Shown: positions 8,556-47,248 of the stretch, piece after piece | Layout: each line of letters opens with the position of its first letter | Numbering within the stretch: the first letter of the stretch is position 1 | Assembly: GCA_963702335.1 (NCBI GenBank) | Contig: CAVPCC010000016.1 | Coordinates: forward strand, 49,528 to 113,527 | DNA: 64,000 nt | DNA from: Vulcanimicrobiota bacterium | GTDB lineage: Bacteria; Vulcanimicrobiota; Vulcanimicrobiia; Vulcanimicrobiales; Vulcanimicrobiaceae | Reading direction: 5' to 3' | The notes under the pieces: generated by a model | The model's input: only the letters and a program-made list of their open reading frames with translations | Database searches by the model: none | Told to the model about the DNA's origin: nothing | Position numbers and translations under genes: made by a program

Positions 8556-8830
8556 ACGACCTCGCCGCGCACGTCCTGGGGCGCGAACTCGAGCTTACGC
8601 CGTGCGAGCTGGAAGCGATCTTGCAGCGGGCCTTACAACACTACGCCGCCGAGGAGCCCGTGCGCCTGCGCGTTCATCCGGAGGATGCGGCCGGGCTGCA
8701 ATGCACCGTTCCCGTTGTGCCGGACGAAACGCTTGCGCGCGGCGATGCGCTGCTGGAACTGCGCACCGGCGAGATCGACGCCTCCCTTGGCGCGCGCCTG
8801 GCGCGCGTGCTGCGCGACTTACAGCAATGA
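8309..8830 (+). CDS. fliH: FliH/SctL-like export ATPase regulator
   Basis: ORF track. C-terminus VRLRVHPEDAAGLQCTVPVVPDETLARGDALLELRTGEIDASLGARLARVLRDL has the FliH pattern. The stop overlaps the fliI ATG (ATGA). An alternative TTG start lies at 8351. Confidence 0.6.
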   Translation: MRGFPARARCAGDSLQTPEGFRSFAQLLAPAAPVAQSPLCEKLPDPVPEPQILESQAACARSARLFHARLEDALRSAYRMLLNDLAAHVLGRELELTPCELEAILQRALQHYAAEEPVRLRVHPEDAAGLQCTVPVVPDETLARGDALLELRTGEIDASLGARLARVLRDLQQ

Positions 8831-22838: not shown

Positions 22839-24893
22839 ATGGTTTCGAACCCGAGCAAACGCTTCCGCCGACGTCCGATGAGCCGGAGCAGCCGCACAAC
22901 GGCTAAACCTCTGCCGCCTCCGACCGCATCGGAGGCGGCTTTCGAACGCGTCCTCCTGACGTTTGGCACGAAGGCCCCGACCGCTCGTCATCCTGAGGCA
23001 TCGAAGGACCCCGAGGCCGATTCCAGCGGAATCGGACCGAGGGGCCTACAAGACTTCCTAACCCAAGCCTTTCAAAACCAAAAGCAATACCTCGCGCGCG
23101 ACGACTTCGCGGGGATCGGCGAGCGCGATTCGTTTCCCACCAAAGTGATGGGCGTTTCGTTCGAGGGACGGCAAGACATGGTCGCGGGCCTGCGCCCCGG
23201 GCAAGAGCTCGAACTGCGCCGCCAGCCCGATAACCCCGCGGATGCAAACGCGATCGCCGTGTGGTATGGCACGTTTCATATCGGGTTCTTGCGCAAGCAG
23301 ATCGCCAAGCATCTGGCGCCGCTCATTGACGGCGGTCTGCGCTACGCAGCGCGCATCGAGCACGTCACCGGCGGCGCGGACGGCAAGCATTTCGGTGTCA
23401 ACATTCGCGTCGAACGGCAACTGCAACGGCAGCCCGATGCCTTCGCTTTGGAATTGCGTGCAGGAGCCGACCACGAGAGCATCCGCCGCGCACTCATCGG
23501 CGATTCCCGCCCGCACGAAGCGCAAGAGGACGTGCTCTCGCGCGTGCAGGGCGGAAAGAACACGCTTGCCATTTTCGGAACGGGCCGCGGTAAGTCGTTC
23601 TGTTTTCAATACCCTGCTGCGTTCCGCGCCCTGGAATCGGAACAGAAGACGCTGATTCTCTATCCGCTGCGCGCGCTGGCGAACGATCAGTTCGACGCGT
23701 TGACGCGGCGGCTCGACGGATTCGGTTTGCGCATGCACCGCGCCAACGGTGCCATCTCGGCCGATGAGCGTGCAGCGCTGATGCAAGCGTTGCAAACCGG
23801 CGCATGGGACATCATTTTGGGAACGCCGGAGTTCTTGCAGTTTCATCGGGATGCGTTCTGGGGCGCGAGCGCGCCCTCGCTGGTCGTCGTGGATGAAGCG
23901 CATCACGTGCACGAATCCAAACACCGCGCGGCATATGGCAACCTGGGCCAAACGATCGCGAGTCTGGGACACCCGCAAGTGCTTGCGCTGACGGCAACCG
24001 CCGGCGATGAAGCGCACAAGCAGATCGTCGCCGATCTGCGCATCGATTCGTGGGTAATCGATCCGACCGTTCGCGAGAACCTGCACGTGGTGGATGCACG
24101 CGGAACGCGCGACAAAATTGGATATCTCACCGAACTCTTCCGGGAGGGCGGTAAAGGCATCGTCTACTGCAACTCGCGCACCGAGGCGACGAAAACGGCC
24201 GACGCGCTACGCAAATCCTTCAAAGACGAGGTCATGTTCTACCACGCCGGGATGCCGACGGCCGAGCGCGCGCAGGTGGAGCAGTACTTCCGCGCCGGCG
24301 AGCTGCGGATCATCGTTGCGACCTCGGCATTCGGCGAGGGCATCGATCTGCCCGACGTGCGCAACGTGGTGTTGTATCACCTCAACTTCGACTTCACCGA
24401 GTTCAACCAGCAAGCCGGCCGCGCGGGCCGCGACGGCAAGGCGGCCGGCATTCATCTGCTCTTTGGCGAGCCAGACCGGCGCATCAACGACTACATCATC
24501 GACCGTGAAGCCCCCACGCTCAACGTCCTGCGCGCGCTCTACCGCGGCATGCGCGGCCTTGCCGCGCAGGGTGAACTTCGCATGACGTTTACCGATATCG
24601 CGCGCACACTCGAACTCGACAAGGCGAACGAACGCACGGTGAGCACCGCGGTCCGCATCTTCGAGGACGAGGGGTTAGTCGAGAGCGGCATCGACGACGA
24701 TGGCCGCTTCGTCCGCTTCCGCTCCGTCAGCGGTAAAGTGGACCTCACGCAAAACGAGCGGTTCGCCGAGGGAGAAGCCACCCGCGATGACTTCTCCCGG
24801 TTCTGCGACTTCGTGCTCAGCGCAAAGCCCGAAACCCTCGAGCGCATTATCAACCGGCCGATCTACCCGGAGCGCGTGCCACTGAAGCGCTAA
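22839..24893 (+). CDS. RecQ-family SF2 DNA helicase with an N-terminal HIRAN domain
   Basis: ORF track, 684 aa. HIRAN-like VMGVSFEGRQDMVAGLRPGQELELRRQPDNPADANAIAV...IGFL. Helicase motifs FGTGRGKSFCFQ, VVVDEAHHV, LALTATA and IVATSAFGEGIDLPDVRNVVLYHL...QQAGRAGRDG. Confidence 0.8.
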   Translation: MVSNPSKRFRRRPMSRSSRTTAKPLPPPTASEAAFERVLLTFGTKAPTARHPEASKDPEADSSGIGPRGLQDFLTQAFQNQKQYLARDDFAGIGERDSFPTKVMGVSFEGRQDMVAGLRPGQELELRRQPDNPADANAIAVWYGTFHIGFLRKQIAKHLAPLIDGGLRYAARIEHVTGGADGKHFGVNIRVERQLQRQPDAFALELRAGADHESIRRALIGDSRPHEAQEDVLSRVQGGKNTLAIFGTGRGKSFCFQYPAAFRALESEQKTLILYPLRALANDQFDALTRRLDGFGLRMHRANGAISADERAALMQALQTGAWDIILGTPEFLQFHRDAFWGASAPSLVVVDEAHHVHESKHRAAYGNLGQTIASLGHPQVLALTATAGDEAHKQIVADLRIDSWVIDPTVRENLHVVDARGTRDKIGYLTELFREGGKGIVYCNSRTEATKTADALRKSFKDEVMFYHAGMPTAERAQVEQYFRAGELRIIVATSAFGEGIDLPDVRNVVLYHLNFDFTEFNQQAGRAGRDGKAAGIHLLFGEPDRRINDYIIDREAPTLNVLRALYRGMRGLAAQGELRMTFTDIARTLELDKANERTVSTAVRIFEDEGLVESGIDDDGRFVRFRSVSGKVDLTQNERFAEGEATRDDFSRFCDFVLSAKPETLERIINRPIYPERVPLKR

Positions 24894-27026: not shown

Positions 27027-28080
27027 ATGTCCATCGCGCGCGTACCAACTCTATGGCTTGTGTACGTCGCTACGATCCCCGGTAAGACCCGCAGCCCAAG
27101 GACTTGGCTGGCATATGGAACGGGAGTTGTGGATTGGTTGCGGGTCTGCGATGCAAACGGTTGGAGTTGGGAAACCGCCACGGAAGAACAGGCGGCTGCG
27201 TATCGAGACAATGCTATTTCGGAAGAGAGCAGTTTGTCGAGCGAGTCCTGGATCCGAAGTCCATTAATCTTTATCTCACAAGCTGTGCCCGCTTCTACAA
27301 GTGGTGCGAAGAACGCAGTGACGTTAAGGAAAGCCCTTTCAAATATGTTCGTTCAAACCGCGGTAAGCACGGTTTGTTGGCGCATGTTAATTCCGAGCGC
27401 GATTCATCAAAGCTCCTACTTGCGTTACCTGAAGTCAAAGGGAAAACTCCTCGATTCTACACCGTCGCCGAAAGACGCAAGATCCAATCACTCATGGGAA
27501 CGCGGGATAGATTGTTCATGCGATGGGCGCTGTATACCGGGATGAGGATCTTCGAGATCGTGATGCTGGCGTTGAGCGACATCCCGCATCAGGACACGTA
27601 TGCTTCTGGAAAATGGCGGAAATTAAACATTCTCGGGAAAGGCGGGTACAGGAGAGATGTTGGGTTCCATCATTCATTTTGGATGAGACGTGGACCTATA
27701 TACGGTTACATCGTTCAAAGATACTTTCGGAGTGCAAAGCGCGGGGTGGTAAAACCGGCGAATCGGCGCTCTGGCCGGGTCGTTGGGGGAGTAAGCTCAC
27801 TGAAGCCGGCGCGAGAGCAGCTTTCAATGCAGCGCTTGAAGCAGCCGGTATTACCGACGGCGTGTTTCACGACTGCAGGCACACCTACGCTATTACCACT
27901 CTCGATCGCCTGATGTTGAAGTCTAGCGACCCGAAGGCGAAGTTGCGTAATCCCCTCGAGGCGTTGAAAAAATTGCTTGGGCACAAGCATCTTTCGTCGA
28001 CCGCGATCTATCTGCAGGCGCGAGAACAGTACTTGGAAGACCTCACGGACGATGACATTGAGGCGCCCGACAGTGTCTAG
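27027..28080 (+). CDS. tyrosine recombinase 1 (TnpA/RitA-like, ~350 aa; frame shifts ~27225 and ~27645-27655)
   Basis: Three frames join. The first is a SAM-like N-domain (TWLAYGTGVVDWLRVCDANGW...LDPKSINLYLTSCARFYKWCEER). The second carries RDRLFMRWALYTGMRIFEI (catalytic Arg). The third carries VFHDCRHTYAITTL (HxxR) and LLGHKHLSSTAIYL (His...Tyr). Confidence 0.8.
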
Positions 28081-29817: not shown

Positions 29818-31641
29818 TGAACGCGCAAGTGCGAAGGGAAACTACGCGAGGTCCCGCGGTGGCTGCTGGAGCTGTTTCAACGACGATGTTTGGTATCTGC
29901 CCAATGCTGTAGTTACATCAGCAAGTAATCATATTCATTGGAAGGTGCAACTCGGCGAAGGTCGATGTCTAACGGATCCAATACACGAGAAGATACTTTC
30001 CACGTGTAAACAGATGCTGTACTGCATGCTTAAAGGCGATTACGGAGTTTACAAGAAGGCGCGCTGCCGCACCGTGTTTGGCACCTGGAGCGCCCTAAGG
30101 CCATTAGTGGTGTGGATGATTGCGCAAGGTCTGACCGCGTTTTCCGAGATGGATGAAAACCAAATAGCAGTCTACAAGGCAAAAGTCACGTCAAGTGGGT
30201 TGTCCGAGAGTCGCCAAGGCCGATTACTCTTGCCTTTAAAAGTGCTTGTGGCGCTGCGCGATAAGATTGAAGACCAACCTCCCGTTAAACCTCATGTAAT
30301 GCTGGAAATCCTGACGCTACCGTCCACGGCGCAAAACGAGTGCAAGACGCCTGCGATCCCAGACCATATTGCCATGCCGTTATTTCGAGAGGCGCTGGAA
30401 TTCATTGCGGCAAATGGCGATTTTATTTGTGAAGTCTACGCGCAAGATTGGGAAAGCCGGCGTGTTCACTATCGGGCTACCGCAAAGGCTGGCATGACGC
30501 ATGGCGCCGGCGCGTTGCGTGTGAGTCGCGAACACTTCGAAAAATATGCGTCATGCGACGTCATTCGGGCCGGTAGCCAGATCTATGCAATTCGAGAGAT
30601 CTCGCAAGTGAACGAAATAGTAACCGTACTGGAGACTGCCTGCTTTATCGTAGTGGCCGGGTTCGTTGGCATGCGCATTAGTGAGATCGGCTCATTAAAA
30701 TCGGGTTGCCTTTCGGTCCAAAAGAGCAATCGCGGCCTAACGTTACTTACCGTGCACGGCCTTCTTTTTAAGACTTCGAGAGAAGAAGAGGGTGTCCCGT
30801 GGCAGTGGGTCGCCGGTTGGGACGGGCCAGAAAATGTGGTCCGGAAAGCGATTGAAACGCTTGAGCGGCTTCGGCGCGCAGAAAAGTGTCAGCCAGCGTC
30901 GAGTGGATATTTATTCACCAGAAGTCACGGCCGCTTTCTGGATGGAGACGCTAACCCCCTGAAGAGCTCCTACTTTACTGCGCGAGTCAATAAATTTGCA
31001 CGGCTTTATGACATTGAGCCGTGGCATTTTACGCCTCACCAATTTCGACGCACCTTTGCACGGTGGGTAACGCGAAAGGACCCGAACGCGTTGCTCGCGC
31101 TTCGTCGTCACTTTGCTCATGTCTCGGTGCAAATGACGGAATTCTATTCATTCTGGGATAGTGACCTAGTCCAAGAAGTGTTGGATGCGGATGTTGAGCA
31201 AGACTATGAAGCATTCGACCAGATACTTGCCGCGGATCATTTGGCGGGCCAAAAGGGCGAAGAAATTCTGTCTCGCAAGTACCGATTCCGTGGTGTCGCC
31301 GGAGAGGAAGCGCGGGGAGCTATATCCGCGCTGAACTTGCGCGTCCGGCCGATGAACAGCTGATCATTATGCGTCACGATTACGGATATTGCATTTACTT
31401 GCCTGACAAGGCGTCCTGCGGCGGTGAACGCTGGCGCATCGGTATTGACACGTGTATCGGATGTTCAAACGCCGTATTTACGAAGCAGCATGTGCCTTTC
31501 TTAGTGCGCCAGAAGGAAGCGCGGCGTTCCGTTATAAGCGCGCCAATTTTTAAGACGCTTTCAGCCCGAGCTCAGACCGACGCACAAAATGGACTTGAGC
31601 GCGTGGAAAAGCTGCTGATCGATCTTACGGGGGCCGCCTAG
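29817..31641 (+). CDS. large tyrosine recombinase 3 (TnpB-like, ~600 aa; frame shifts near 29850-29900 and ~31320)
   Basis: The ATG at 29817 overlaps the previous stop (TAATG). ORF 29945..31363 has VAGFVGMRISEIGSLK (Arg), FTPHQFRRTFARW (HxxR) and LRRHFAHVSVQMTEFY (His...Tyr). A Cys-rich C-terminus continues in ORF 31369..31641 (HDYGYCIYLPDKASCGGE...CIGCSNAVF). Confidence 0.75.
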
Positions 31642-34410: not shown

Positions 34411-34665
34411 GTGGTGCATACCGAGTTCCTTCTGTACGCTCGCCTGGTGGCGGACCACCAGTACAAACGGACTCTCAAACGTCTAGCCGCCAACATTCGG
34501 AAGCGGCGAGGAGAGGCTCGGCCTAACGCAGGAAGACGTTGCTCATGCGGCCGACATGGCGGTTCGACATTTTCAAAAGCTCAGGACGCAGACGTTAACG
34601 TGACGCTCCGTACGATGACGAAAGTTGCGCGTGCTCTCAAAAGCGATTTACGCGATTTGTTGTAA
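34411..34665 (+). CDS. XRE-family HTH regulator (frame-broken)
   Basis: LKRLAANIRKRRGEAR.. / ..QEDVAHAADMAVRHFQK.. / ..NVTLRTMTKVARALKSDLRDLL across frames. This is the typical Cro/C1 HTH layout. Confidence 0.45.
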   Translation: MVHTEFLLYARLVADHQYKRTLKRLAANIRKRRGEARPNAGRRCSCGRHGGSTFSKAQDADVNVTLRTMTKVARALKSDLRDLL

Positions 34666-35675: not shown

Positions 35676-35861
35676 TTAACGAGGAACCACGCTACTCCGC
35701 CGATCGTTATGATGCACGCTGTCGGCATCTTCGTTGTACGTGATACCGGAATGAATTAGGATACGTTCACGAAGATTTGTTCTGCGGGGCCGGTTCTCAA
35801 TGGTCTTTCGGCCGTCGGCGACCACGAGCGACCACGGCGGCCGGATGGAAAGCGCGCGCAT
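35676..35861 (-). CDS. ASCH-domain protein (C-terminal part continues in other frames to ~35600)
   Basis: MRALSIRPPWSLVVADGRKTIENRPRRTNLRERILIHSG matches the ASCH N-terminal pattern (ALSIRQPWA...GxKxIENR). It lies 10 nt downstream of the RHH gene. Confidence 0.4.
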   Translation of the reverse strand: MRALSIRPPWSLVVADGRKTIENRPRRTNLRERILIHSGITYNEDADSVHHNDRRSSVVPR

Positions 35862-35871
35862 GCTTTAGACG

Positions 35872-36095
35872 TTACCGCGCCTTAGACGTTGTTTTATTAA
35901 CAACGTCCCGTCGAATCAAATCAGCAATATACTCACTCTTGCTGTCAGCAAGGCTGGCGTCTAAGGTTTCATGAAACCGCCAATTCTGGTCAACAGCGCT
36001 CAAAACATCCGGCGGAAAAGTGTACGTCGCTTTCTTGTGCGGACCAGCAGCCGGAGCGTTGGTAGTCTTTGCTTGCTCATGCGTTTGACGGTCAT
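35872..36095 (-). CDS. ribbon-helix-helix (CopG-like) protein (frame shift ~36070)
   Basis: The ATG at 36095 overlaps the GIY-YIG stop (ATGA). The main frame reads KKATYTFPPDVLSAVDQNWRFHETLDASLADSKSEYIADLIRRDVVNK, a beta-strand followed by two helices as in RHH proteins. Confidence 0.45.
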
Positions 36096-37326
36096 CGTGG
36101 CAGAATCTTGCGGCTTATCGCGTCGTAGCGATAATTAACGATGCTACGATCGAGAATGCGTTTCACCGCTTCTTCGACCAGATCGAGCGGCACAACAAAC
36201 CACTCCTTTGGCACCACGCGCCTGCCCAAAACGACTTCTACCTGCAAATTCGCGTGTGCGAAAAACTGATGCAGCAATTGCTCCAGTTTGCGCGCAGTAA
36301 AATTTGTTTCGAAAGTTGCGCGCAATTGCACCTTGGCACACAAGAACGTAGGATCTTTGTCCGTGTCTGCAAGGCGCTTTTCTAGTGGCTGCGTTGTGAA
36401 TCCAATCTTATACAATTTCCCTTTAAGAGCGACAATGTTCGGGTCTTGAGACAAACTCTCGACTATATAAACGGTGCCTTTAACGTCGCCAAATTCGGCT
36501 TCTGCTTCACCGGTAAAAAGCGGGCCGGCAACGTGACCAGAGCCGCCGAACAGCGGGCCGCTGATCGTAGGCGCAGCCTCAATAACTTGTCTACCGTTAT
36601 CGTCCTCGTATAGCAATCGGGCCAGCGAGCGAAGTAGGTGATTACTTTCCGTTCCATTATCAAAGATGATGTGCGTACGTGCGTCGTGCTCCTTGCCGCG
36701 TCGGTGCGGCTCATCTACGGCTGCGACATACGATATAATACCGTTCAGGATGAACACGGCACCCGGAACGATGCTGCTTTCGCGCTCAAACCGTTTCGTG
36801 TAACGTCTGCCGGACCGGAGGTCTTCTTTCAATTCGGCGAATATCGGTGCAAAGCGCTCAAAGTCCGGGCACGGCCGCCGCTTTGCAATGTCATCAGGAG
36901 CCGCCTTACTTGCCGTCGGCGCCGCTACATGCTTGAGATCAAAAATTGCGTCCGCGGGTGTGGAAAGCAACGCATCATCTGACGCGAGAATCTCGTCAAT
37001 GCTGCTCGGTATCGGCGTGACTTGCGCAGGCGGCCCGAGGAAACCGTGGCGGTCGAAAGGGGCAAGCAGCGTTCGATATGATTCCGTCGCGCGGAACGTT
37101 TCGAGATTTCCCTCGAGCGAGTATTCTTGAAGCGCGGGGGCTCGACCGTTTTCCGTATTGCCCGGCAGGAAGCCATGCTGATCGAAGAATGCGTTGACTG
37201 CCTCGAATTGGCTAATCACGATATCGTCTTCGGTCGATCGCGTCGGGCCAGCGGCTTTACCGGCAAGCAGTCCTAGGTCGTCGTCTTCCGAGAAGATGTC
37301 TCAAACCGAGCCGGCTTATCGCTCAT
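36092..37326 (-). CDS. T5orf172 / GIY-YIG-like nuclease-domain protein (~410 aa; frame shift ~37295-37300)
   Basis: ORF track 36092..37219. The C-terminal domain GTVYIVESLSQDPNIVALKGKLYKIGFTTQPLEKRLAD...KLEQLLHQFFAH...PKEWFVVPLDLVEEAV has the GIY...YIG...EWF pattern of T5orf172. The in-frame upstream extension lacks a start. The ATG at 37326 overlaps the helicase stop (ATGA) one frame off. Confidence 0.75.
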
Positions 37327-39314
37327 GAGATTGCGGCTCGTTCCCGTTCGCGTTTCGCATTGCGAATTATTGAAAGGGCGTGTGCGAGACGCTGCTCGCG
37401 GGGATCTTGCGCGTTCAGATTCGGTTCGCGACCACGATTTTGCGTAAATGCCTTTACGCTTGGCCAGAGCATCGCGGCCTCCTCGTCGTTCATTGGGAGC
37501 CGACCAGCAACGATATTGCCATGAATCGTCCGCAGAACTCGCTCATCTAGATTCTTCGAAAGAATCTCGTATGCGTGCTCAAACGGGTTAATACTATCGA
37601 TCAGGTCGATTGAGAGGTCGTCGAGATTGACGAACTTCCGTGCGAGTTTGACAAGCACATTCTCGCCTTCGCGCTTCGTTTCAAGTTCACCATTGGTGGC
37701 CGGGGCCGAATCGCCGGGTTCCGGCGACACGGCATTCTTAAAGTTCAAATCCAGCAGGACTGCGTGGCGTACTTCGTTCACTTGCGACTCGGTGAGGTCA
37801 GGGTACCGCTTAGCGATCACCATCGGGATAATTTTCGTGTTAATTTCAGCCGGCGTATATACGTCCGGGTGTATCGTAACTAGTTTGATGAGCGGATCCT
37901 GGATAATGTCGACTTTGAGTTCATCTAATTGGTCCTCAACGATCTCACGCACACGATCGGTGGACGGCTCCTGGAATCCCTTGATGTAAAGCGGTACACC
38001 CGGACCAGGCTCTTCTGCCGGCACGTCAGGCACCTTTGTTTTAAAATTGAAGTTTGGCGCGAGCACCTGTTCCATGATCAGGGAAACGGAGATGGCCTTC
38101 AGCATGTTGTTTACCGCTTCAGTCACCGTTGATTGCTGCTCTATAGGTTCGGCAACGAGGTTGGTGAATTGGGCATGCGTTTTGCCTTCCGCGTCACGCG
38201 TAGCACGTCCGATGATCTGGATGACTTCTGTCATGGAGTTGCGGTAACCAACCGTGAGCACATGCTCGCACCAGATCCAGTCGAACCCTTCCTTCGCCAT
38301 CCCTAGCGCGATAATGATGTCGAGATCATCGCGTTTCTCAACTTTTCGCAGACTAGCGAGAACAGTCTCCCGGTATGCGCTGTCGTCCACAAGGTCTGCA
38401 ACCTTCAGGACGGTCCCATCGGGCTGCGTGACGTGATAAAAGCCGGTAGTCTCGTCGCGAATAAAGTTACTCGCATCGCCACCGGCCATGAACTCCAATA
38501 GGTCATCAACTTGTTCATTTTTGCCTTTCGGCGCTTCGGACGAGTTGACGCTCGGGATGTGAATGATGGTTTTCTTCGAAAGGTCAAGAACTTCTTCAAC
38601 GGCCTTGATATACGATTCAGTATAAAAGTGATAGCCAATTCCAAGATTTTTTAAATGTTCGTATGACGCGAGTTGTTCGTAGTATGTGTACGTAACGCGC
38701 GTAAATCGGTTCTCGTCTTCAGGCCGAAGTACCGGCATCGTGTCGCCGCGGAAGTAGGACCCGGTCATCGCCACGATATGCGGTCGGCCATCGGCGATCA
38801 GTCCGCGAACGAGTTCGCCAAGTTTCGACTCTGCGTCAGCCGATGTGTGATGGAACTCGTCAATAGCAACGACGCAATCGGCAAAGGCGGCCGCACCGAG
38901 TTTTTCGTAGGCGAAGCGCAACGTCGCATGCGTGCAAACGAGTATAGACTCGTCTGAAGTGAGAAACTCTGCCACGGCAGCGGTCTTGTGCCCCCCGCCG
39001 GACGTTGTGAGGTTGTACTTCGGGGTTATAAGCCAATCGGCAAAAAAACCGGTCGGCTTCAGCGGCGTCGTCTTGAACGAGTTACCGATGGAGCGCTCCG
39101 GAACGGCGACGACGATCTTCTTGACCCCTTGGTTCGCGATCTTGTCCAAGGCGATGTACATTAGCGCGCGCGACTTGCCGGACGCCGGCGGTGCTTTTAT
39201 TAAGAGATACTGCGCGTTGCGCGCATCAAATGCACGGGCCTGCATTTCGCGCATGCCCATCGCATTAACGGTTGCTTTGTGTGTCCCGCAAATGTGCGTG
39301 ATGAGGTTAGGCAC
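37323..39314 (-). CDS. SF2 DEAD/DEAH-box (ResIII-like) helicase, 663 aa
   Basis: ORF track, intact. Motif I LLIKAPPASGKSRAL, motif II VVAIDEFHH, TGSYFRGD, motif VI QIIGRATRD. A long helical C-terminal region has no recognisable nuclease motif. Confidence 0.88.
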   Translation of the reverse strand: MPNLITHICGTHKATVNAMGMREMQARAFDARNAQYLLIKAPPASGKSRALMYIALDKIANQGVKKIVVAVPERSIGNSFKTTPLKPTGFFADWLITPKYNLTTSGGGHKTAAVAEFLTSDESILVCTHATLRFAYEKLGAAAFADCVVAIDEFHHTSADAESKLGELVRGLIADGRPHIVAMTGSYFRGDTMPVLRPEDENRFTRVTYTYYEQLASYEHLKNLGIGYHFYTESYIKAVEEVLDLSKKTIIHIPSVNSSEAPKGKNEQVDDLLEFMAGGDASNFIRDETTGFYHVTQPDGTVLKVADLVDDSAYRETVLASLRKVEKRDDLDIIIALGMAKEGFDWIWCEHVLTVGYRNSMTEVIQIIGRATRDAEGKTHAQFTNLVAEPIEQQSTVTEAVNNMLKAISVSLIMEQVLAPNFNFKTKVPDVPAEEPGPGVPLYIKGFQEPSTDRVREIVEDQLDELKVDIIQDPLIKLVTIHPDVYTPAEINTKIIPMVIAKRYPDLTESQVNEVRHAVLLDLNFKNAVSPEPGDSAPATNGELETKREGENVLVKLARKFVNLDDLSIDLIDSINPFEHAYEILSKNLDERVLRTIHGNIVAGRLPMNDEEAAMLWPSVKAFTQNRGREPNLNAQDPREQRLAHALSIIRNAKRERERAAIS

Positions 39315-42044
39315 TTATGGGGTTCTCCGTGAGTGACGTACGTAGCAGGGGGCTGTCCGCTCGAGCCGACAATGTGGCATAAAGATCAAAAAGGTGTTGG
39401 AGGCGCTTGGTGTCGTCCTTGAATTTTCGCCCATAGACGAATTCTTCTAAGTAAGTATCGTTGTCTCTATGAGCGGATAGCAAATCAGGGGGCATCGTTT
39501 CAGGGTTATAGAGCCATGCAATGGTCTTGCCAGGGTGCTTTGCGCGCGCCTTAAGAATAGCGTTTGCATTTTCGGCGAGTGCGCGGTTTTGGTCGCTCGA
39601 AATACCTGGAATGGGAAACGTGTTGTATGCCAGACCGCTTGAGTAGCGGATACGATTTTTAGTTTTCCGCCAACTACTTCAGTCCAAATACGTACCATTC
39701 TCGAGGAGATGATGGCAAACAGAGATGCAGGCGCTCCGTACACTACGTACATTTGATTGTTGGCGATGTCTCGCGCCGACAGCAAGCCGACCTGTAAGTA
39801 TTGCCGGCGCTCAGATGACACTTCGGGGATGACGATGCCATCTTCGTCGCGATGCGTTATGAAGCAAAAGCGATGTGGAGTGCTTGCAACGCGCCTCTTG
39901 TTGCGGCCGCCGGACTCGCGGTCCTGGCGCGTTTTCGCGATGCGTGCCGCAACAGGGGGGATCGTCGCCGCTAGTGGCAGCGTGTCGTCAGTAATCCATA
40001 GGACGTAACGTTCAATGTTGTAAAGAAAATCCTCGGAACCGTAAAAGCGCCGAATGAGCGGCGCAGATTCCGGATAATCTGCAAGCATTTGTCGCTTTTC
40101 GGTTGGCGTCAGGATAAGGTGACCGCCATCACTTGGTTCATCGCCTTTGACGACCGCTGGAAAGTCGCCAATAGGTGTTGTGCGACGAGCGACGACAAGG
40201 TTGTGTGACGATGGCACGAGATACGCGTTGATGTTTGGCGTAGAAAGATGGTACGAATCGGTGTAGAGCGTCGCCGGTACCGATTGCTCTTTCTTTCCGA
40301 TGCCGATAATAACGCAAGAGACGCCGGCGTTATGGGATGCGCTGTTTGCCCACTTGAAAGTTGTATGCGCGAAAATAATTCGAAGGCCGTGCGAAAAAAT
40401 GTACGGCCACAATAGCGGAACCTGCTCACCTTGACACACGGAGTTAGTCGCAACAAGAGCCGCTAACGTTGTTTTGTCGGCATTGATGTAGTTGGTCGCC
40501 TTGATTAGCCAGCACGCGACGTAGTCTACCTTAGTGCTTCCACCAAGAATCCCTAAAAACACCCTTTTCACATCGGCCCTTTGGTCAGGTGTCTGGCCGT
40601 ATACGCCTTGATAGGGAGGGTTGCCGCAAATATACGTTTCGCGATCGGCTCGTAATGGACATACATTGAGCCAGTCGAGATGAAGAGCATTTGCGCAGTG
40701 AATTGTTTCAATTTTGGACAGCGGAAGTGTCGGTCGTGTATTCCCAAAAGTCTTCTTAAAAAGGCCGTTCATCTGGTGCTCAGCGATCCACAAGGATAAC
40801 TTCGCGGTTTCGCAAGCGAAGTCGATGACGTCAATGCCAAAAAAGTTATCAAGTGAAATGCCGGATAAATGAAGTTGCGAGGTCCCTGTGATCTCGGCGA
40901 TACGGCTAAGCGTCTGAATCTCGAGATGGCGTAGTGCTTTGTAAGCGATGACGAGAAAGTTTCCTGAGCCGCAGGCCGGATCAAATACACGAAGTTTTGA
41001 AAGGCGGTCGAGAAGCCCGTTGAGTTTAGTAAGCGATCCATTTGCCTTCGCGTATGCTTCGTGCAATTCGTCAAGAAATAGCGGCTGCAACACCTTCATT
41101 ATATTAGGCACACTTGTGTAGTGCATGCCAAGGTCGCTACGCGTGCCATCCTGCGCGATGGTCTGGATCATGGAGCCAAAGATGTCTGGATTGACTGTTG
41201 TCCAGTCGAGGTCGCCGCATTCTAGCAACTGCCGGCGTGCAGTACGGTCGAATTGCGGAATTTCAACGGTATCCTCGAAAAGGCTGCCGTTCACGTACGG
41301 AAACTTGCCTTCGACCATCGGCGTGCTCTTTGTTCGCGATGTTTCCTCGACGTTCATGATACGGAACAAACGATCAAGTAACGGCGCTACATCGTTGCCA
41401 CTTTCGCTGGTATATTGCGTGACGGTGTTTGTGAACACCTGAGGTTCGTCGAATATCCCGGTGTCTTCTGCATAGAAGCAGAAGAGCAGCCGCGTCATCA
41501 GCAGATTGAGTTCATGCGTGTGGTGACCGCTGCTCCACGTTGGATTTGCGGCGAGGATGGAATCGTAGAACTTCTTGAGTTTCTTAGCCGCCTTGATGTC
41601 GGCCGGATGTTCCTCGACGACGTTGCGGCGTTCGAAGCCGGCCAATGGTAAAAGGAAATCGGACTTTTCATCCAGTTTTGCGAACTGGACGTTCAGCGTG
41701 TCGTCGCTCTGCATATCGCGAGCATGAACGTGCTCGCCATTCGCGACGACAATAAACCGCGGCTTGTGCTTCGCGGTTAACGGATCGGCGGCGAGCGCAT
41801 CACCAATGGCTCCGACGTCCTCGCCAGTTCCAGCCGGTCGGAAGAAGAGGTGTTTCTTCCAGAGGACGTCACGGGGCTGTTTCGCAGCGTTCGTTGTGCC
41901 GTTTTTAAGTCGGCTAACGGTGACCTTGGACGCATTGTAGATGCCCGCGAGATCATAAGGGAATGTTGCCGGATCGAACGGTTTCGCGACCAGGTCTCTT
42001 ACGGCAAATTCGATTTCAGTTGGGTTCATACGAGTGGAAGTCAC
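39307..42044 (-). CDS. MmeI-family (type IIL-like) N6-adenine DNA methyltransferase with TRD, endonuclease motif apparently lost (frame shift at T5 run 39656-39660)
   Basis: Colinear with my recollection of MmeI. Shared segments: LLMTRLLFCFYAEDTGIF, FPYVNGSLFE, WTTVNPDIFGSMIQ, LGMHYTSVPNIMKVL, FDPACGSGNFLV (motif I), CGNPPYQG (motif IV), NSVCQGEQVPLLWP and VGGKLK|NRIRYSSGLAYNTFP...YNPETMPPDLLSAHRDND. The last 62 aa are in ORF 39307..39495. Confidence 0.88.
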
Positions 42045-42700: not shown

Positions 42701-45700
42701 CTAAAAAATGCCGCTCTCAAACTCATCATCCGTTGCTTTCGCGCGGTCTCGCTCTCTTGACAAGCCACATCGCAAGTCTTCCTTCCATGCAGCAATTTTG
42801 GGATTCCCAAATGCTGGTATATCTTCGACCAATTCAAGCCGTTCGTCGTAGTAATCAGCCATCGGGCCAACAGTCATAAAGCTGTGAAAGTTAGCATCCA
42901 AGTTCCTAAGGACATCGTCACGGTCGCCAAAATGTTGAAGCAACGCCTTCATCAGATCCGAAATTACAAGGGGCGCATTACGCTTAGCGACAACCATTTG
43001 GCCCCTATATGCGAGAAACCAAGGAACATCATCTGGATAACTTCGCGCGAAGTCGACCAAAGTATCGAGCGGTAGAACTTCCAGCGCAAGCCGGTGACCA
43101 ACTTCACCCGGTTCGTTGTATTGCATCGCGTTGAGCAACTCCCATCGTTCCCGTCGATCCAACGAACGATATGCCTCACGAAGTCTTAGCCACGTGCTGC
43201 TGTCGCGCAGAAGATCACGCCATAACCCAGACGCTCGATACTTTTCGTGAAACCCAGCCCCAGAAAGTGCGAGTGCAAGCATCTGGTCCGCCAGGTGAAC
43301 CGCGAAGCCATGATTCTTCTGCAAAATACGTGGTATGATCTTAAATAGGCTCCACTCGAGTGTGTTCGGCAACGGATTCTCGACAAACTTACTCTCGATG
43401 ACGATACGTGCAAATACATTATCGAACGAGTGCGTCTGTTCTACACCAAATATGAGCATATGCACGACGGATGCGTACCATCCGCGATCAATCAGCACAT
43501 TTGCGAGCTCTGCTATTAGGGATGGCTCGATATCTGACAAGCGCTTCCCGACGAAGGCATACCCCGAAGGTTCCTGCTCTAGCATGCCGTCGCGGTATGC
43601 TCCAATGAGTCGGCGCACGTCCTCAGGCAAAAAACGCGGTTGGCTGGAAAGCAGCGGCAAAGGCTGGCGCGAGCGTCTTGTCTCCGGCAATGCGTTGGAG
43701 AATCAGTTGCCGCAGTTCAGGGTCTCGATCGGCGATCACCTGAATCATTCCGGTCAGTGCAAGTTCGTTGCGCGGCGGAGCCGCAGTGCGATACGCGTCA
43801 ATGGCAAACTCCGCAAGCGCCGGCAGATCAGCTGTCATCTCTGCTACACGTTGTCCATACGAAAAGGCCAGCGAGTGATGTCCGCTACTGAGTGCATTGA
43901 TGACTTGTTTAACCTCACCGCAGTCCATTGTGGCAGCCGCAAACTTTTCAAGCCGCTCCAGTGAAACATCAACGACCGTTCCATCGCGCTCCTCCAGATT
44001 GCTCGGCGGAGCCGTAACGTATACTCGAACGCGATCTTCAAGACTTGAGGGCTCCAGTAAGCCTAGCATGCTCTCCGCAGCTGCTCGGTCCTCAATTGGG
44101 GCATCTTTAAGCTCGTAGTTAAGAACCCAGGTTAATCGTTCGATCGCTTTAGGCCACGCGCCACCAGACAACGATTTTAGTGCTAGGCGTAGATCATCCC
44201 ATCTCCGATAACGCACGAGCGTAATAGTCGCATCAGCAATAACATCCCGTGCAAGTTCTAATCCCTTCTCGCCAATTGACGCCAAGCGCAAAGCCCGTTC
44301 TACACCGCTGCGGTAATAATCAAAAATCTCGTCCCAGGTTTGTGGTCTCCACTCGACGAGTTTCGGACGTCCGCCTTGCCACTCCGGGCCCAAACGAATA
44401 CAGCCGCCTTCGTGTTGAAACATCCGTTTGAGATTCCCAGCGATTACCGATTCTTTGTTGTTTCGGTGGCTCTCAAACATCTCGTCGAGCACCTGTAGTC
44501 TATTACGCGGAGGCGCTTCGGTTTGCGAGCCGAGTAGTCCAAATAGTTTATGAAGTGTACCAGTCGCATTATTGGTATAGGTGCTGTTCTCGTTGCAAGA
44601 TAAAGCGAATAGAACACGAGTGCGTTGATGAATTGCTCGTGATGAAAGGCCATGCATTCTAGAGCGAAAACCAGTGTCTGGCGCCCTTTTGAGTCATCTA
44701 TAGACCGTAACTCGTCATCACTAAGGCGCAATAGTGTCCGAGCAAGAGCGGAGGCCGCTGAAGTCGGGTCCACCTCCGATAAAGCGTACACAAAGTCTGC
44801 GTTGCCGCTACCAATAATGCCGTCTAGCGTCCCAAATCGCCCATTAGGTGCGAAAAGCTCTTCGGCCAGTCGCACGGCGGTAGGAGTACTAATTTCGTGA
44901 AAACGCTTTGCGAGCGAATCAGCCAACGATTCTGGCAGATTATTAAATAGCCGCTCTTTTGTGTCAGGCAATGCATCAAGTAGCCATTCATGTGCTAGAC
45001 GAATCGCCAGCGGCGGTGGCGTAACTCTCCAGTATCTTCCAATAGTGGCGATGAGCCCGCTCCGCTGATAAGCTCAGGATAGGCCGGTAGAAACGTTCCC
45101 GTGATATGTCAGGAGCGAACATCGATCTTAGAACGTCCCACTCATCTTTGACATTATCCACGTGCCCTACGTGATCGAAAAGCGCTAGTAGGCGTAGCAC
45201 CTTTGGCGCATCTAGATCGCTATCGTTGGAAATCAAGCGCTGGGTCAACTCATCATCTCGGAGGGATGCGATATGCTGCTGCCCAGCCTCGACTGCGTCC
45301 AGAACGATCAAAGCCATTAAGGGCCAACCTTGAGCGTAATCAACGATACGTCGGATATCTGCATCGTTGAACCTTATGTGAAGATCGGCACGACCGACAA
45401 CGTACGCCCGAACGATACTTTCGATAGTGGCGTCGTGCAACGGTTGAAGAATCCGCATTGGACGCTGAATCGGTCTGTGTACTTATTGTGATAGCGGTTA
45501 GATTCGTTCCGTGAATTTCTTGGGCGATTCGATTATGAAGTTCGAGCGTGCAGTCGTCGACTACGATTATGCCGCGAGTTCCGGCGCGTTTCCAATGGGG
45601 TAACGCCCTTAATAGATCGACTGATGCCGGGAAACCGAGCATTAAAGTATACAGCGGCGTCCTTCGCATTTTCGGCGGCTCGCAGCGTTTCCAACGCTAC

Positions 45701-46596
45701 ACGTGTCTTGCCCAGGCCAGGAGCACCCGTAATTCTGTAAACCGCTCCCGATGCATCGAGTGTCTCGCGAATCCCTTTGACTATTTCGTTAGTTCCGTCG
45801 GACGGGACGTAGGGGTTCTGAAAGTGTGCTTGCCGTTGCCATTCGTCGAACGTGATGAGTGTAGTGGCTCAGAGCGACCCGTTGCTCGCAACACAAAAGT
45901 TCGCGCCCAGAGATCTTGACTGGCCCACGCTGCGATCTCCTCGGCAGCAAAGATTGCAATTGTAACTCCGTTCGAACGAAGGTGCCGTTCCGCTGCCTCG
46001 ACCATCGAGCAAATTCGGATTTCTTGTTGTTCTGCAGTTAGATCGGCGGAACAGAAGAGCACGTATGCGCCGCTCGCCGCAAGGACATTGCGTATCGCCG
46101 GTTTTAGGTCACTCCGATCGCGCCGCTCGATCTCGCGAACCAGGCTCCGACGCGCTCATTCCGCGTCCAGACTTCGCCTGCCAGACAATTTGCCGCGCAG
46201 GAAGGTGCGGTGTGCGCTCGCGGCCGTCCTGCCAGTGAATGGTTCCGTCGACGCCGCCGTCTGCCACGGTAATCCGCCTTGTGGTTCGCATCGTAGCGTC
46301 GAGGCCGTTTTGTAAGGCCTCCGCTCGGATGAGGTGATTGAGCAACATCACGAAATCCGAAGGGCTGAGTGCTTCAACGTCCTCCGGACCGATGTCGAAC
46401 GGACTTGCGGCGCGACTCGGCGACGGCGCGACGTCCATTCGCGCAGGTGTCGCTGGACGGTAGCAAGGCTACCCTCGCCGAGGTGGTCGCGAACAGCGCG
46501 AGATGTCGGCCGTGCTCCGCTTCCCAAGAGCCGGTTTGCCGCAGCCGCAACTTGTTCGTACGTGATCCCGGGTCTGCCGGGGGAAGTGGTACTCAT
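42701..46596 (-). CDS. NLR/STAND-type NTPase locus: KfrA-like HTH + Mrr-like nuclease-like domain + P-loop NTPase + long helical repeats (~1300 aa if one protein; at least 7 frame breaks)
   Basis: Joined minus-strand ORFs 46348..46641, 46109..46438, 45781..46062, 45340..45669, 44988..45458, 44444..44971, 43623..44657 and 42701..43690. Motifs:
- ITYEQVAAAANRLLGSGARPTSRAVRDHLGEGSLATVQRHLREW (KfrA_N-like);
- LSPSDFVMLLNHLIRAE...ITVADGGVDGTI...QIVWQAKSG (D...QxK);
- Walker A GAPGLGKTR (45704-45727);
- Walker B GIIVVDDC;
- IVDYAQGWPLMAL. Confidence 0.65.
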
Positions 46597-47248
46597 AGTA
46601 AAATTATGGATTCGAATCAAATCATATCGGACCCTTGTCAAAGGAAGGGGACGTGGGAACTTCTGTCGTAGGCCCGGGCCAAGGCGCGTGGAGCGCCCCA
46701 GCGCAAATGTACTCAGCCCCGGCGCAGGGGCCGACGGAAACGCGCGAGAGGGCCGGCAATCTTTTTGGCGACCGGGTCGGCGGCGACGGCCAACGACTCG
46801 GTCGTCGCGCGGTATGATGACTACGATTCACATTACGGTAGGTCAGATCAAACGGCATAACGCGCCTGCTCTGCACCGCAGAGCGTCGCACCGGTGACTA
46901 TCGTTCACGAGCGCCGAAAGCAAGGGGCGAAACCGCAGTCATTTACTTATCGCGTACGAACTGATCGTACGGTGAACTATCGAGTGCGCGAAGCGGGCGT
47001 GCGGGGTTTCTTCACGCCTTGGCTCGACGCGGAAATTGATCCGCAGCCAGCGTTCTCGAAGCACCGTTGTCTGAGACAATACGGATCGTTCCCGACTCGA
47101 AGACGGCGCACGTGGCGCAGTTGTTCTTCACATCAGAACAGTCGGTTCTACAAGCGGAGATTCAAGATGGCGTTTGCCCTTCACTCGAGCCTCCGCCAAT
47201 GCTTCGCCGGCCTGCAGATGCTGCTGAGGTCCGCGTGCCGCGTCACTT

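What the first reader, a model, noticed from the sequence alone, without database searches (positions are those of the whole stretch)
35676..42044. Five-gene coupled operon that looks like an undescribed split R-M-like defence system
**Seen in sequence**
- All five genes lie on the minus strand with overlapping or near-abutting boundaries.
- The MTase stop at 39307 overlaps the helicase start at 39314.
- The helicase stop and the next ATG share ATGA at 37323-37326.
- The GIY-YIG stop and the RHH ATG share ATGA at 36092-36095.
- The RHH-to-ASCH gap is 10 nt.
- The MTase has SAM motif FDPACGSGNF, NPPY and a TRD. The helicase has GKS, DEFH and QIIGRATR. The third protein has a T5orf172/GIY-YIG C-domain.

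**Established knowledge**
- MmeI-family enzymes normally carry nuclease, MTase and TRD in one chain.

**Inference**
- Recognition and modification, translocation and cleavage are distributed over three proteins.
- The RHH may act as a controller and the ASCH protein as an accessory.
- In this window I see no PglZ/BrxC (BREX), no DUF1998/PLD (DISARM) and no HsdS/HsdR or Res partner. The architecture therefore does not fit the named systems I know.
Basis: partly seen in the sequence, partly recalled or inferred. Interest (0 to 1): 0.8.

Follow-up and report, generated by a model that had tools for sequence, protein, structure and literature searches.

The report
Decayed YeeA-YeeB-YeeC restriction-like operon
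The locus is a frameshift-damaged copy of a widespread three-gene module (nuclease-dead MmeI-like methyltransferase, helicase, GIY-YIG-type nuclease) first described in 2009 and known from Bacillus subtilis as dnmA(yeeA)-yeeB-yeeC, so it is not a new defence system.

Summary
The sequence observation holds. Five co-directional minus-strand genes have exactly the quoted junctions and motifs. The methyltransferase, the T5orf172 gene and the small "RHH" gene each carry a frameshift, and the "ASCH" gene is a 61-codon stump.

The split reading (recognition/methylation, helicase, nuclease on three proteins) is reasonable but not new. Morgan et al. 2009 described MmeI homologues that lack the PD-ExK motif and are "invariably" followed by a YeeB-like DEAD helicase and a YeeC-like GIY-YIG protein. 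They proposed the same mechanism.

- **Nuclease motif:** the window protein has all five MmeI domains, but RPA replaces ExK.
- **Homology:** the helicase is 52% identical to B. subtilis YeeB. The third protein matches YeeC (E 1e-45).
- **Synteny:** all 74 informative related loci, across many phyla, keep the same gene order.
- **Accessory genes:** the RHH-like gene occurs only in the closest subclade. The ASCH gene occurs nowhere else.
- **Published function:** B. subtilis DnmA methylates GACGAG without restriction. Vibrio crassostreae yeeAB protects against some phages.
- **Context:** the copy lies on a low-GC island with tyrosine recombinases, next to a shattered PD-Lambda-4-like gene.

Verdict: new, probably dead, member of a known kind. 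Low interest.

The parts
39307..42044 (-). yeeA/dnmA-like gene for a nuclease-dead MmeI-family N6-adenine methyltransferase with target-recognition domain. About 907-912 aa once frame-corrected. The likely start is the ATG at 42029. A 1-nt deletion at about 39660-39656 disrupts it.
   Evidence: - Pfam finds MmeI_N, MmeI_hel, MmeI_Mtase, MmeI_TRD and MmeI_C.
- PADLOC REase_MTase_IIG scores E 1.9e-270.
- The match to MmeI structure 5HR4 scores E 7e-175, with ExK replaced by RPA.
- The frame switches from -3 to -2 relative to the intact L001 protein.
- The deletion is visible in the DNA alignment with L002.
37323..39314 (-). yeeB-like SF2 (DEAD/DEAH-type) helicase/ATPase, 663 aa. It is the only intact gene of the five.
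   Evidence: - Pfam gives weak DEAD, Helicase_C and ResIII matches.
- It is 52% identical to B. subtilis YeeB over 616 residues and 50% identical to V. crassostreae YeeB.
- The Walker A motif (PPASGKSRALM), DEFHH and QIIGRxTRD are conserved in at least 93% of an 80-sequence alignment, and the window copy keeps them.
36092..37326 (-). yeeC-like gene with a C-terminal T5orf172/MUG113 (GIY-YIG-superfamily) domain. About 412 aa once corrected. A 1-nt deletion between 37301 and 37300 puts the first 8-9 codons out of frame.
   Evidence: - Pfam MUG113 scores E 2e-13 and T5orf172 E 1e-11.
- It matches B. subtilis YeeC (E 1e-45) and V. crassostreae YeeC (E 1e-57).
- Close intact homologues of 411-413 aa reach 79% identity.
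- The deletion is seen against L001, L082 and L011.
- The motif residues Y287, K307, G309, R318, E349, H353 and E375 are retained.
35872..36095 (-). Small (about 75 aa) gene translationally coupled to the yeeC-like gene. It is frameshifted near 36072-36068. It is a lineage-specific accessory and not part of the conserved trio.
   Evidence: - Homologues follow the third gene only in L001, L082 and L083, with a shortened 57-aa version in L084 and L085.
- It is absent downstream of the third gene in the other loci.
- There is no Pfam hit and no PDB profile hit. A single-sequence AF2 model is uninformative.
35676..35861 (-). 61-codon remnant with weak N-terminal ASCH similarity. It is truncated or frameshifted and is not associated with the trio elsewhere.
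   Evidence: - Pfam ASCH scores E 0.037, 15.2 bits, below the 21.2-bit cut-off.
- tblastn finds no match in the 80 related loci.
- A possible continuation lies in another reading frame.

Best explanation
This is a decaying copy of the YeeA(DnmA)-YeeB-YeeC module, a three-gene, restriction-modification-like unit carried on mobile DNA.

**Likely mechanism of the intact form**
1. The MmeI-like protein binds a short asymmetric site through its MmeI-type recognition domain. It marks host DNA by N6-adenine methylation (NPPY motif).
2. Its N-terminal domain keeps the MmeI fold signature but has lost the ExK catalytic residues. It probably serves as a docking or signalling domain rather than a nuclease.
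3. The YeeB-like SF2 ATPase supplies ATP-driven translocation or remodelling from unmethylated sites.
4. The YeeC-like protein cuts DNA with its T5orf172/GIY-YIG-type domain.

**Shown here**
- Domain content, loss of the nuclease triad, and direct homology to YeeB and YeeC.
- Strict conservation of gene order across phyla.

**Shown in the literature**
- DnmA methylates GACGAG, and YeeA alone does not cleave DNA.
- yeeAB protects V. crassostreae from one phage subclade.
- The B. subtilis copy shows no restriction.

**Inferred only**
- Complex formation, translocation, and cleavage by YeeC.

**State of the window copy**
- The methyltransferase, the nuclease gene and the small accessory gene each carry a frameshift. 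The ASCH gene is a stump.
- The neighbouring PD-Lambda-4-like gene is shattered, while core genes in the window are intact.
- The island's defence genes therefore look pseudogenised.
For: **Family membership**
- Morgan 2009 defines the group and proposes the mechanism.
- The window protein matches MmeI end to end but has RPA at the ExK position. None of 61 helicase-linked homologues keeps the triad.
- The helicase is 52% identical to Bs YeeB and 50% to Vc YeeB. The third protein matches Bs YeeC (E 1e-45) and Vc YeeC (E 1e-57).
- All 74 informative loci, from Bacteroidota, Pseudomonadota, Bacillota, Cyanobacteria, Planctomycetota, Verrucomicrobiota and CPR, keep the order MTase -> helicase -> T5orf172.
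- RefSeq annotates a Bosea plasmid copy as DNA methyltransferase / DEAD/DEAH box helicase / GIY-YIG nuclease family protein.

**Published function**
-.

**Decay**
- The frame switches against intact homologues and 1-nt deletions are visible in DNA alignments.
- All close homologues of the third protein are intact at 400-415 aa.
- The neighbouring gene is split into at least 8 overlapping ORFs. Its pieces hit positions 4-83 and 608-848 of the 1283-position PD-Lambda-4_A profile.
- Core genes match their Pfam profiles almost end to end, for example FlhA at 1-656 of 657 and FlhB at 2-332 of 335.

**Mobile context**
- GC falls from about 0.62 to about 0.53 between 27 and 53 kb.
- Tyrosine recombinases lie at 27.1-31.4 kb.
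- Close relatives sit in conjugative elements.
Against: - No biochemical reconstitution of YeeA/B/C exists. Translocation and GIY-YIG cleavage are hypotheses.
- The best-studied copy (B. subtilis) gave no restriction or phage protection.
- The window proteins still keep every residue conserved in at least 93% of family members, so any decay is recent.
- The MTase and probably the RHH-like lesions are single-base losses in or next to A-runs. That is also the typical signature of long-read or pyrosequencing errors.
- I could not inspect reads. The source of the window is unknown, and an exact look-up of the helicase found nothing.
- The B. subtilis and Vibrio reference sequences came from machine-read text of a supplementary figure and contain small OCR errors.
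Confidence: 0.85

Rival explanations
1. The operon is intact and active in the organism. The frameshifts are assembly or sequencing indel errors, so this is a functional YeeABC-type defence locus.
For: - All family-invariant catalytic residues are retained.
- The MTase lesion is a 1-nt loss in or next to an A5 run, and the RHH-like lesion lies in CAAAG.
- The helicase is fully intact.
- Overlapping start/stop junctions are preserved.
Against: - The lesion in the third gene (TTTGA-GACATC) is not in a homopolymer.
- About 12 kb of core genes in the same window show no frame breaks against Pfam profiles. The island's PD-Lambda-4-like gene has at least 8. Uniform sequencing error would not concentrate in the island.
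- The ASCH gene is truncated as well.
Confidence: 0.25
2. The family is not a defence system. The MmeI-like protein works as an orphan, regulatory methyltransferase, and the helicase and nuclease genes are relics, as concluded for B. subtilis.
For: - B. subtilis dnmA-yeeB-yeeC gave no restriction of plasmid uptake and no protection against three phages. DnmA methylation affects promoter activity.
- An S. mutans YeeA-type enzyme is described as an orphan regulator.
Against: - Strict three-gene synteny across phyla, with a highly conserved helicase (about 50% identity between phyla) and retained motifs, argues for selection on all three genes.
- V. crassostreae yeeAB inactivation abolished resistance to a phage subclade.
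- The module travels on plasmids, ICEs and islands beside other defence genes.
- In this window the methyltransferase itself is frameshifted.
Confidence: 0.1
3. One reading: a previously undescribed five-gene split R-M-like system with an RHH controller and an ASCH accessory.
For: - The five genes are tightly coupled in this window.
- The RHH-like gene also follows the nuclease gene in the closest relatives.
- PADLOC has no models that recognise the helicase or the T5orf172 protein.
Against: - The core trio and its proposed mechanism were published in 2009 and followed up in 2020-2023.
- The ASCH gene is in none of the related loci, and the RHH-like gene is absent outside one subclade.
- The RHH fold is unverified, and the ASCH match is below threshold.
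Confidence: 0.03
4. The locus is a fragment of a BREX, DISARM or Type I/III system whose partner genes lie elsewhere or were lost.
For: The first protein gives partial hits to PglX and DrmMI models.
Against: - NCBIfam BREX PglX scores of 16-26 bits are far below the 400-900-bit cut-offs.
- The DrmMI hits cover only part of the protein.
- None of the 74 syntenic loci needs PglZ/BrxC or DrmA/B to keep the trio together.
- The flanking genes examined are a PD-Lambda-4-like remnant and recombinases.
Confidence: 0.02

Closest known systems
B. subtilis DnmA(YeeA)-YeeB-YeeC and V. crassostreae YeeA-YeeB(-YeeC), i.e. 'group 2' MmeI homologues of Morgan et al. 2009
   Same: - Same three proteins in the same order.
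- MmeI-like protein without the PD-ExK triad.
- YeeB-like helicase (52% and 50% identity) and YeeC-like T5orf172/GIY-YIG protein (E 1e-45 and 1e-57).
- Located on horizontally acquired, low-GC DNA.
   Different: - The window copy carries frameshifts in two of the three core genes.
- It has an extra coupled gene of about 75 aa, shared only with its nearest relatives.
- The recognition domain is divergent (58% overall identity even to the closest MTases), so the target sequence is probably different.
MmeI (Type IIL / IIG single-chain restriction-modification enzyme, PDB 5HR4)
   Same: Collinear homology over residues 31-893, with all five MmeI Pfam domains. The FxPACGSGNF and NPPY motifs and the TRD are present.
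   Different: The catalytic D70-X9-E80-X-K82 is not conserved; RPA replaces ExK. MmeI has no helicase or separate nuclease partner.
Type ISP enzymes LlaGI/LlaBIII (my knowledge plus abstracts listed)
   Same: They combine an adenine MTase and TRD, an SF2 helicase motor and a nuclease. The likely logic is the same: recognise an asymmetric site, translocate with ATP, cut remotely.
   Different: Type ISP is one polypeptide with an Mrr/PD-ExK nuclease. Here the functions lie on three chains, the nuclease is GIY-YIG-type, and the helicase is an unrelated SF2 family.
Type I R-M (HsdM/S/R)
   Same: - Separate modification/recognition and motor/nuclease subunits.
- Morgan 2009 called the group a possible link to Type I.
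- Related loci host the same 'embedded cargo' genes (RhuM, DUF1016/YhcG, Fic, AlbA_2) between the MTase and the motor gene. That these cargo classes occur in Type I operons is my own knowledge.
   Different: There is no HsdS. Recognition is built into the MTase chain. Modification is presumably single-strand, as in MmeI. Nuclease and motor are on different proteins.
BREX PglX / DISARM DrmMI methyltransferases
   Same: They have distantly related MmeI-like gamma-class adenine MTase cores.
   Different: Scores are far below family cut-offs. No PglZ, BrxC, DrmA or DrmB partners are present, and the helicase and T5orf172 partners are different.

Membership tests
YeeA(DnmA)-YeeB-YeeC module (MmeI-homologue group 2, Morgan 2009) | First protein is homologous to MmeI along essentially its whole length beyond the first ~100 residues | tested here: met
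   phmmer against 5HR4 gives E 7e-175 over residues 31-893. All five MmeI Pfam domains are found.
YeeA(DnmA)-YeeB-YeeC module (MmeI-homologue group 2, Morgan 2009) | First protein lacks the PD-ExK motif that aligns with MmeI D70/E80/K82 | tested here: met
   DVLWKKHLFFRPA aligns with DLFWPGILLIEMK. None of 61 helicase-linked homologues keeps D..ExK.
YeeA(DnmA)-YeeB-YeeC module (MmeI-homologue group 2, Morgan 2009) | Immediately followed by a DEAD-superfamily helicase similar to B. subtilis YeeB | tested here: met
   52% identity over 616 residues to Bs YeeB, E=0. The reference sequence was taken from machine-read Fig. S5 of PMC9973331.
YeeA(DnmA)-YeeB-YeeC module (MmeI-homologue group 2, Morgan 2009) | Then followed by a conserved protein with GIY-YIG-family motifs similar to YeeC | tested here: met
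   Pfam T5orf172/MUG113. 33% identity to Bs YeeC (E 1e-45) and 31% to Vc YeeC (E 1e-57). The Gx(I/V)Y and YK(I/V)G motifs are present.
YeeA(DnmA)-YeeB-YeeC module (MmeI-homologue group 2, Morgan 2009) | No second DNA methyltransferase gene flanking the module | tested here: inconclusive
   No MTase domain was found in the flanks that were scanned: three-frame Pfam of the minus strand of 42.1-47.1 kb, and selected ORFs of 27-32 kb and 47-54 kb. The flanks were not scanned exhaustively in all six frames.
YeeA(DnmA)-YeeB-YeeC module (MmeI-homologue group 2, Morgan 2009) | m6A methylation of a short asymmetric site; phage or plasmid restriction that depends on all three genes | not testable with these tools
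   Needs methylome data and genetics. Literature results are mixed.
MmeI-type Type IIL/IIG single-chain R-M enzyme | Catalytic PD-(D/E)xK endonuclease motif in the N-terminal domain | tested here: not met
   ExK is replaced by RPA. PADLOC's Type IIG model still matches at E 1.9e-270, so automated tools would mislabel it.
BREX | PglX scoring above the family cut-off, together with PglZ and BrxC/PglY | tested here: not met
   NCBIfam PglX models score 16-26 bits against cut-offs of 400-900. No PglZ or BrxC was found in the flanks examined or needed in the 74 syntenic loci.
DISARM | DrmMI together with DrmA (DUF1998 helicase), DrmB and DrmC or DrmD | tested here: not met
   Only partial DrmMI hits, the best E 4e-27 over residues 472-834. 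The helicase matches no Drm model.
Type ISP (LlaGI-like) | Single polypeptide combining Mrr nuclease, SF2 helicase, MTase and TRD | tested here: not met
   There are three separate ORFs with their own starts and stops. No Mrr domain is found.
Ribbon-helix-helix regulator (for the ~75-aa gene) | Recognisable RHH/CopG/Arc-type domain | tested here: inconclusive
   No Pfam hit even at E<=10. No PDB hit with a four-sequence profile. The single-sequence AF2 model is one long helix. Only the sequence pattern (KKATYTFPPD ... SKSEYIADLIRRD) suggests an RHH.
ASCH domain (for the last ORF) | Pfam ASCH match above the gathering threshold over the full ~100-residue domain | tested here: not met
   15.2-16.4 bits against a 21.2-bit cut-off. 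Only profile positions 1-48 of 103 are covered, and the ORF ends after 61 codons.

The most novel reading that the evidence does not exclude
The most novel reading still open has three parts.
- The frameshifts are assembly errors and the locus is active.
- In this subclade (window, L001, L082/L083, and shortened in L084/L085) the YeeABC module has gained a translationally coupled, ~75-aa DNA-binding fourth gene. That gene controls expression in the way C-proteins control Type II systems.
- The YeeABC family as a whole is an ATP-dependent, Type I/ISP-like restriction machine that cuts with a GIY-YIG-type nuclease. This has never been reconstituted biochemically.
Probability: 0.12. Interest if true: 0.35.

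Novelty: new member of a known kind. Interest (0 to 1): 0.15.

Why it matters
It matters mainly as a correction. A locus flagged as a possible new defence system belongs to a family recognised since 2009.

- **Annotation trap.** PADLOC's Type IIG model matches the nuclease-dead MmeI-like protein end to end and ignores its two partners. Pipelines will therefore call such loci single-gene Type IIG R-M systems.
- **Open question.** The family is widespread on plasmids, ICEs and islands across many phyla, yet it has not been characterised biochemically. Intact relatives (for example L082 or L001) would be better starting material than this damaged copy.
- **Local biology.** The window shows a defence island decaying in place. 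Its defence genes carry frameshifts, while the chromosomal genes examined match their profiles full length.

Tried and rejected
- **Source look-up.** An exact-sequence look-up of the helicase found no record, so the source genome stays unknown.
- **NCBIfam.** Nothing scored above cut-off for any of the proteins.
- **PADLOC on the partners.** The helicase and third protein gave only weak, non-diagnostic hits to PbeA, Cas3 and PDC-S57.
- **Structure of the YeeC-like family.** An AF2 model from a 75-sequence alignment had mean pLDDT 77 and pTM 0.36.
  - Foldseek against the PDB gave no match at E<=0.001.
  - There were only weak resemblances to EF-P/eIF5A/Tudor-type small beta-barrels. These probably involve the middle beta-rich region (residues ~176-251), though the aligned region was not checked.
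  - The N-terminal two thirds of the protein remain unassigned.
- **RHH gene.** Pfam, a PDB profile search and single-sequence AF2 all failed to confirm the fold.
- **Frameshift detection.** A GC3 frame plot across the window was too noisy to use.
- **Promoters and terminators.** The scan found no more sites than shuffled sequence gives.
- **Cluster names.** Names for relatives say only 'DEAD/DEAH box helicase' and 'GIY-YIG nuclease family protein'.
- Makarova 2011 is not in the library.
- **Rejected readings.** BREX, DISARM, Type I, Type III and Type ISP membership were considered and rejected (see the membership table).
- **Phase variation.** Phase variation at the MTase A-run was considered. 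It is unlikely for an A5/A6 tract and does not explain the other lesions.

Full report
**What is in the sequence**

Between 42044 and 35676 the minus strand carries five co-directional reading frames.
  - The stop at 39307-39309 overlaps the GTG at 39314.
  - ATGA lies at 37326-37323 and at 36095-36092.
  - A 10-nt gap precedes the ATG at 35861.
- The quoted motifs are all present: FDPACGSGNF, NPPY, GKS, DEFH and QIIGRATR.
- Only the helicase (37323-39314, 663 aa) is an uninterrupted ORF.

Three-frame translation and tblastn with the intact proteins of the closest related locus L001 locate the breaks.
- The first gene switches frame near 39650.
- The third gene has its first 8-9 codons out of frame.
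- The small fourth gene switches frame near 36070.

DNA alignments place two of the lesions.
- One single-base deletion lies in or next to the A-run at 39660-39656: CTA-AAAATCG in the window against CTAGAAAACCG in L002.
- Another lies between 37301 and 37300: TTTGA-GACATC against TTCAGCGACATC in L001. This site is not a homopolymer.

The fifth ORF ends after 61 codons. It reaches only E 0.037 against Pfam ASCH, below the family threshold.

**What the proteins are**

*First protein.* Once frame-corrected it is not a bare methyltransferase.
- It has all five MmeI Pfam domains: N-terminal, helicase-spacer, Mtase, TRD and C-terminal.
- It matches PADLOC's Type IIG model PDLC03598 end to end (E 1.9e-270).
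- It aligns with the MmeI crystal-structure sequence 5HR4 over residues 31-893 (E 7e-175).
- In that alignment the MmeI catalytic stretch DLFWPGILLIEMK (D70-X9-E80-X-K82, as defined in PMC2731913) lies opposite DVLWKKHLFFRPA. The ExK half of the nuclease motif is gone.

*Second protein.* It is an SF2 ATPase with weak DEAD, Helicase_C and ResIII matches.

*Third protein.* It carries a C-terminal T5orf172/MUG113 domain of the GIY-YIG superfamily.

*Small gene.* The 75-aa product has no Pfam match and no PDB match, even with a profile. Its single-sequence model is uninformative. 'RHH' rests on sequence pattern alone.

**Is the gene set a real unit?**

- In the 80 best loci I searched for the other four proteins.
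- 74 loci carry MmeI-like gene, helicase and T5orf172 gene in that order on one strand.
- In the other six a contig end removes the place where the missing gene would lie.
- The loci come from Bacteroidota, Alpha-, Beta- and Gammaproteobacteria, Bacillota, Cyanobacteria, Planctomycetota, Verrucomicrobiota, Lentisphaerota, a CPR lineage and Eremiobacterota-like MAGs.
- None of the 61 helicase-linked MmeI homologues with a readable N-terminus keeps the D..ExK triad.

The window's three proteins keep every residue that is conserved in at least 93% of family members.
- In the helicase these include Walker A, DEFHH and QIIGRxTRD.
- In the third protein they include GxxY, YKIG, R318, E349, H353 and E375.

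The two small genes are not part of the conserved unit.
- No conserved fourth gene follows the third one across the 80 loci.
- A homologue of the 75-aa protein is present only in the nearest relatives: L001, L082 and L083, and shortened to 57 aa in L084 and L085.
- The ASCH remnant has no counterpart anywhere.

The conserved system therefore has three genes. The 75-aa gene is a subclade accessory and the ASCH stump is a local passenger.

**It is already described**

Morgan et al. 2009 (PMC2731913) split MmeI homologues into two groups.
- One group has the PD-ExK motif.
[quoted passage not shown] These are a DEAD-domain helicase like B. subtilis YeeB and a protein with GIY-YIG motifs like YeeC.
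- They proposed that the MmeI-like subunit provides specificity and protective modification, while the helicase and endonuclease subunits 'accomplish DNA scission'. They found no endonuclease activity for YeeA alone.

Later work added functional data.
- Nye et al. 2020 (PMC7261158) renamed YeeA as DnmA and showed m6A at GACGAG. They found no growth defect from deleting dnmA and no restriction of plasmid uptake.
- Fernandez et al. 2023 (PMC9973331) confirmed the conserved synteny. They found no protection against three Bacillus phages and called the B. subtilis copy a relic.
- A V. crassostreae study showed that yeeAB alone mediates resistance to one phage subclade (bioRxiv 10.1101/2021.05.05.442762).

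I tested membership directly.
- The machine-read text of Fig. S5 of PMC9973331 contains the YeeB and YeeC sequences of both species.
- The window helicase is 52% identical to B. subtilis YeeB over 616 residues and 50% identical to Vibrio YeeB.
- The third protein matches B. subtilis YeeC at E 1e-45 and Vibrio YeeC at E 1e-57.

No defence-system name exists for the trio. PADLOC and NCBIfam have no models for the two partners. RefSeq annotates a Bosea plasmid copy as DNA methyltransferase / DEAD/DEAH box helicase / GIY-YIG nuclease family protein.

**How it most likely works**

*Shown here or in the cited papers:*
- Site-specific adenine methylation by the MmeI-like protein.
- Loss of that protein's own nuclease.
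- Obligatory linkage to a strongly conserved SF2 ATPase and a GIY-YIG-type protein.
- Anti-phage activity in one species.

*Inferred:*
- The three proteins form a complex, perhaps through the degenerate MmeI_N domain.
- Unmethylated sites license ATP-dependent translocation, and the T5orf172 domain makes the cut. This gives a Type I/Type ISP-like logic with an MmeI-type reader.

*Side observation that fits the Type I analogy:*
- In about 30 of the related loci, extra co-directional genes sit between the methyltransferase and the helicase.
- These genes are RhuM, DUF1016/YhcG PDDEXK nucleases, Fic/DOC and Schlafen-AlbA_2 proteins.
- From my own knowledge, the same cargo classes occur inside Type I operons.

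An AlphaFold model of the YeeC-like family (mean pLDDT 77, pTM 0.36) found no significant structural neighbour in the PDB. The N-terminal two thirds of that protein remain unexplained.

**State of this copy and its surroundings**

The locus lies in a 27-53 kb stretch of about 0.53 GC, within a window of about 0.62 GC.
- Tyrosine recombinase genes lie at 27.1-31.4 kb.
- Close relatives sit in conjugative elements beside relaxase and type IV secretion genes.
- Helicase relatives occur on 178 plasmid records but on only 3 phage records.

Directly upstream (46641 down to 42701, minus strand) at least eight overlapping ORFs in alternating frames belong to one gene.
- It has a KfrA_N domain at its start.
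- Its pieces match positions 4-83 and 608-848 of the 1283-position PD-Lambda-4_A profile.

By contrast, ten core ORFs match their Pfam profiles essentially end to end. Examples:
- FlhA covers positions 1-656 of 657.
- FlhB covers positions 2-332 of 335.
- The set also includes FliI, SecD, SecF and a HIRAN helicase.

All 120 closest homologues of the third protein are intact or merely contig-truncated.

Frame breaks concentrated in the island favour real pseudogenisation over uniform sequencing error. I could not inspect reads, however. The conserved catalytic residues show that any decay is recent, so I leave 25% for assembly error.

**Verdict**

- The split-function reading is sound but sixteen years old.
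- The five-gene claim and the 'undescribed' claim fail.

The locus is a new, probably inactive, member of the YeeA(DnmA)-YeeB-YeeC family. Interest is low. What remains of value is twofold. The family still lacks biochemistry, and automated tools mislabel its first gene as a complete Type IIG enzyme.

Noticed in passing
window 42701-46641 (minus strand): A large gene is broken into at least 8 overlapping ORFs in alternating frames. It has a KfrA_N domain at the N-terminus and a P-loop (GAPGLGKT). Its pieces match positions 4-83 and 608-848 of PADLOC's PD-Lambda-4_A profile. It looks like a shattered second defence gene next to the operon.
   Followed up: partly
window ~27000-53000: A low-GC block (about 0.53 against about 0.62) with tyrosine-recombinase genes at its left end: 27104-27913 (weak match) and 29945-31363, plus a 552-aa ORF with no family match. 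It is probably an integrated mobile island. No tRNA gene occurs anywhere in the window.
   Followed up: partly
related loci L014, L022, L027-L030, L032, L034, L035, L037, L040, L052, L057, L075, L076, L080 (between the MTase and helicase genes): About 30 of the related loci carry extra co-directional genes inserted between the yeeA-like and yeeB-like genes. Recurrent families are Schlafen AlbA_2+HATPase_c_4 (6 loci), RhuM (6), DUF1016_N+YhcG_C PDDEXK nuclease (4) and Fic/DOC (2). This looks like a variable cargo slot, similar to the one in Type I R-M operons.
   Followed up: partly
L001 9529-9984 and L084 7562-8032: A 151-156-aa protein of unknown family (no Pfam hit) sits between the MTase and the helicase in two of the closest relatives. 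The window lacks it.
   Followed up: no
window 6900-8555: One ORF combines FliF domains (YscJ_FliF and YscJ_FliF_C) with the first 47 positions of FliG_M. A three-frame scan of 5900-8900 found FliH but no FliG_N or FliG_C. This is either an unusual FliF-FliG arrangement or a degraded fliG.
   Followed up: partly
window 1529-3280: A single 583-aa ORF contains a YCII domain, ECF sigma-70 regions 2 and 4, and DUF6596. It is either a fusion or two genes read through by the ORF finder.
   Followed up: no
window 22839-24893: An intact 684-aa HIRAN + DEAD/Helicase_C protein lies in the high-GC core, just left of the island.
   Followed up: no
window 34411-34665 (plus strand): An 84-aa ORF ends in a sequence that looks like the tail of an XRE-type helix-turn-helix protein (…TLRTMTKVARALKSDLRDLL). 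Its start looks out of frame, so this may be another frameshifted island gene. It was not tested.
   Followed up: no
window 36092-36280 vs L001 13020-13209: The last ~41 residues of the YeeC-like protein (VVPKEWFVVPLDLVEEAVKRILDRSIVNYRYDAISRKILPR) are identical between the window and L001. The proteins are only 71% identical overall. This suggests strong constraint or recent recombination at the 3' end.
   Followed up: no
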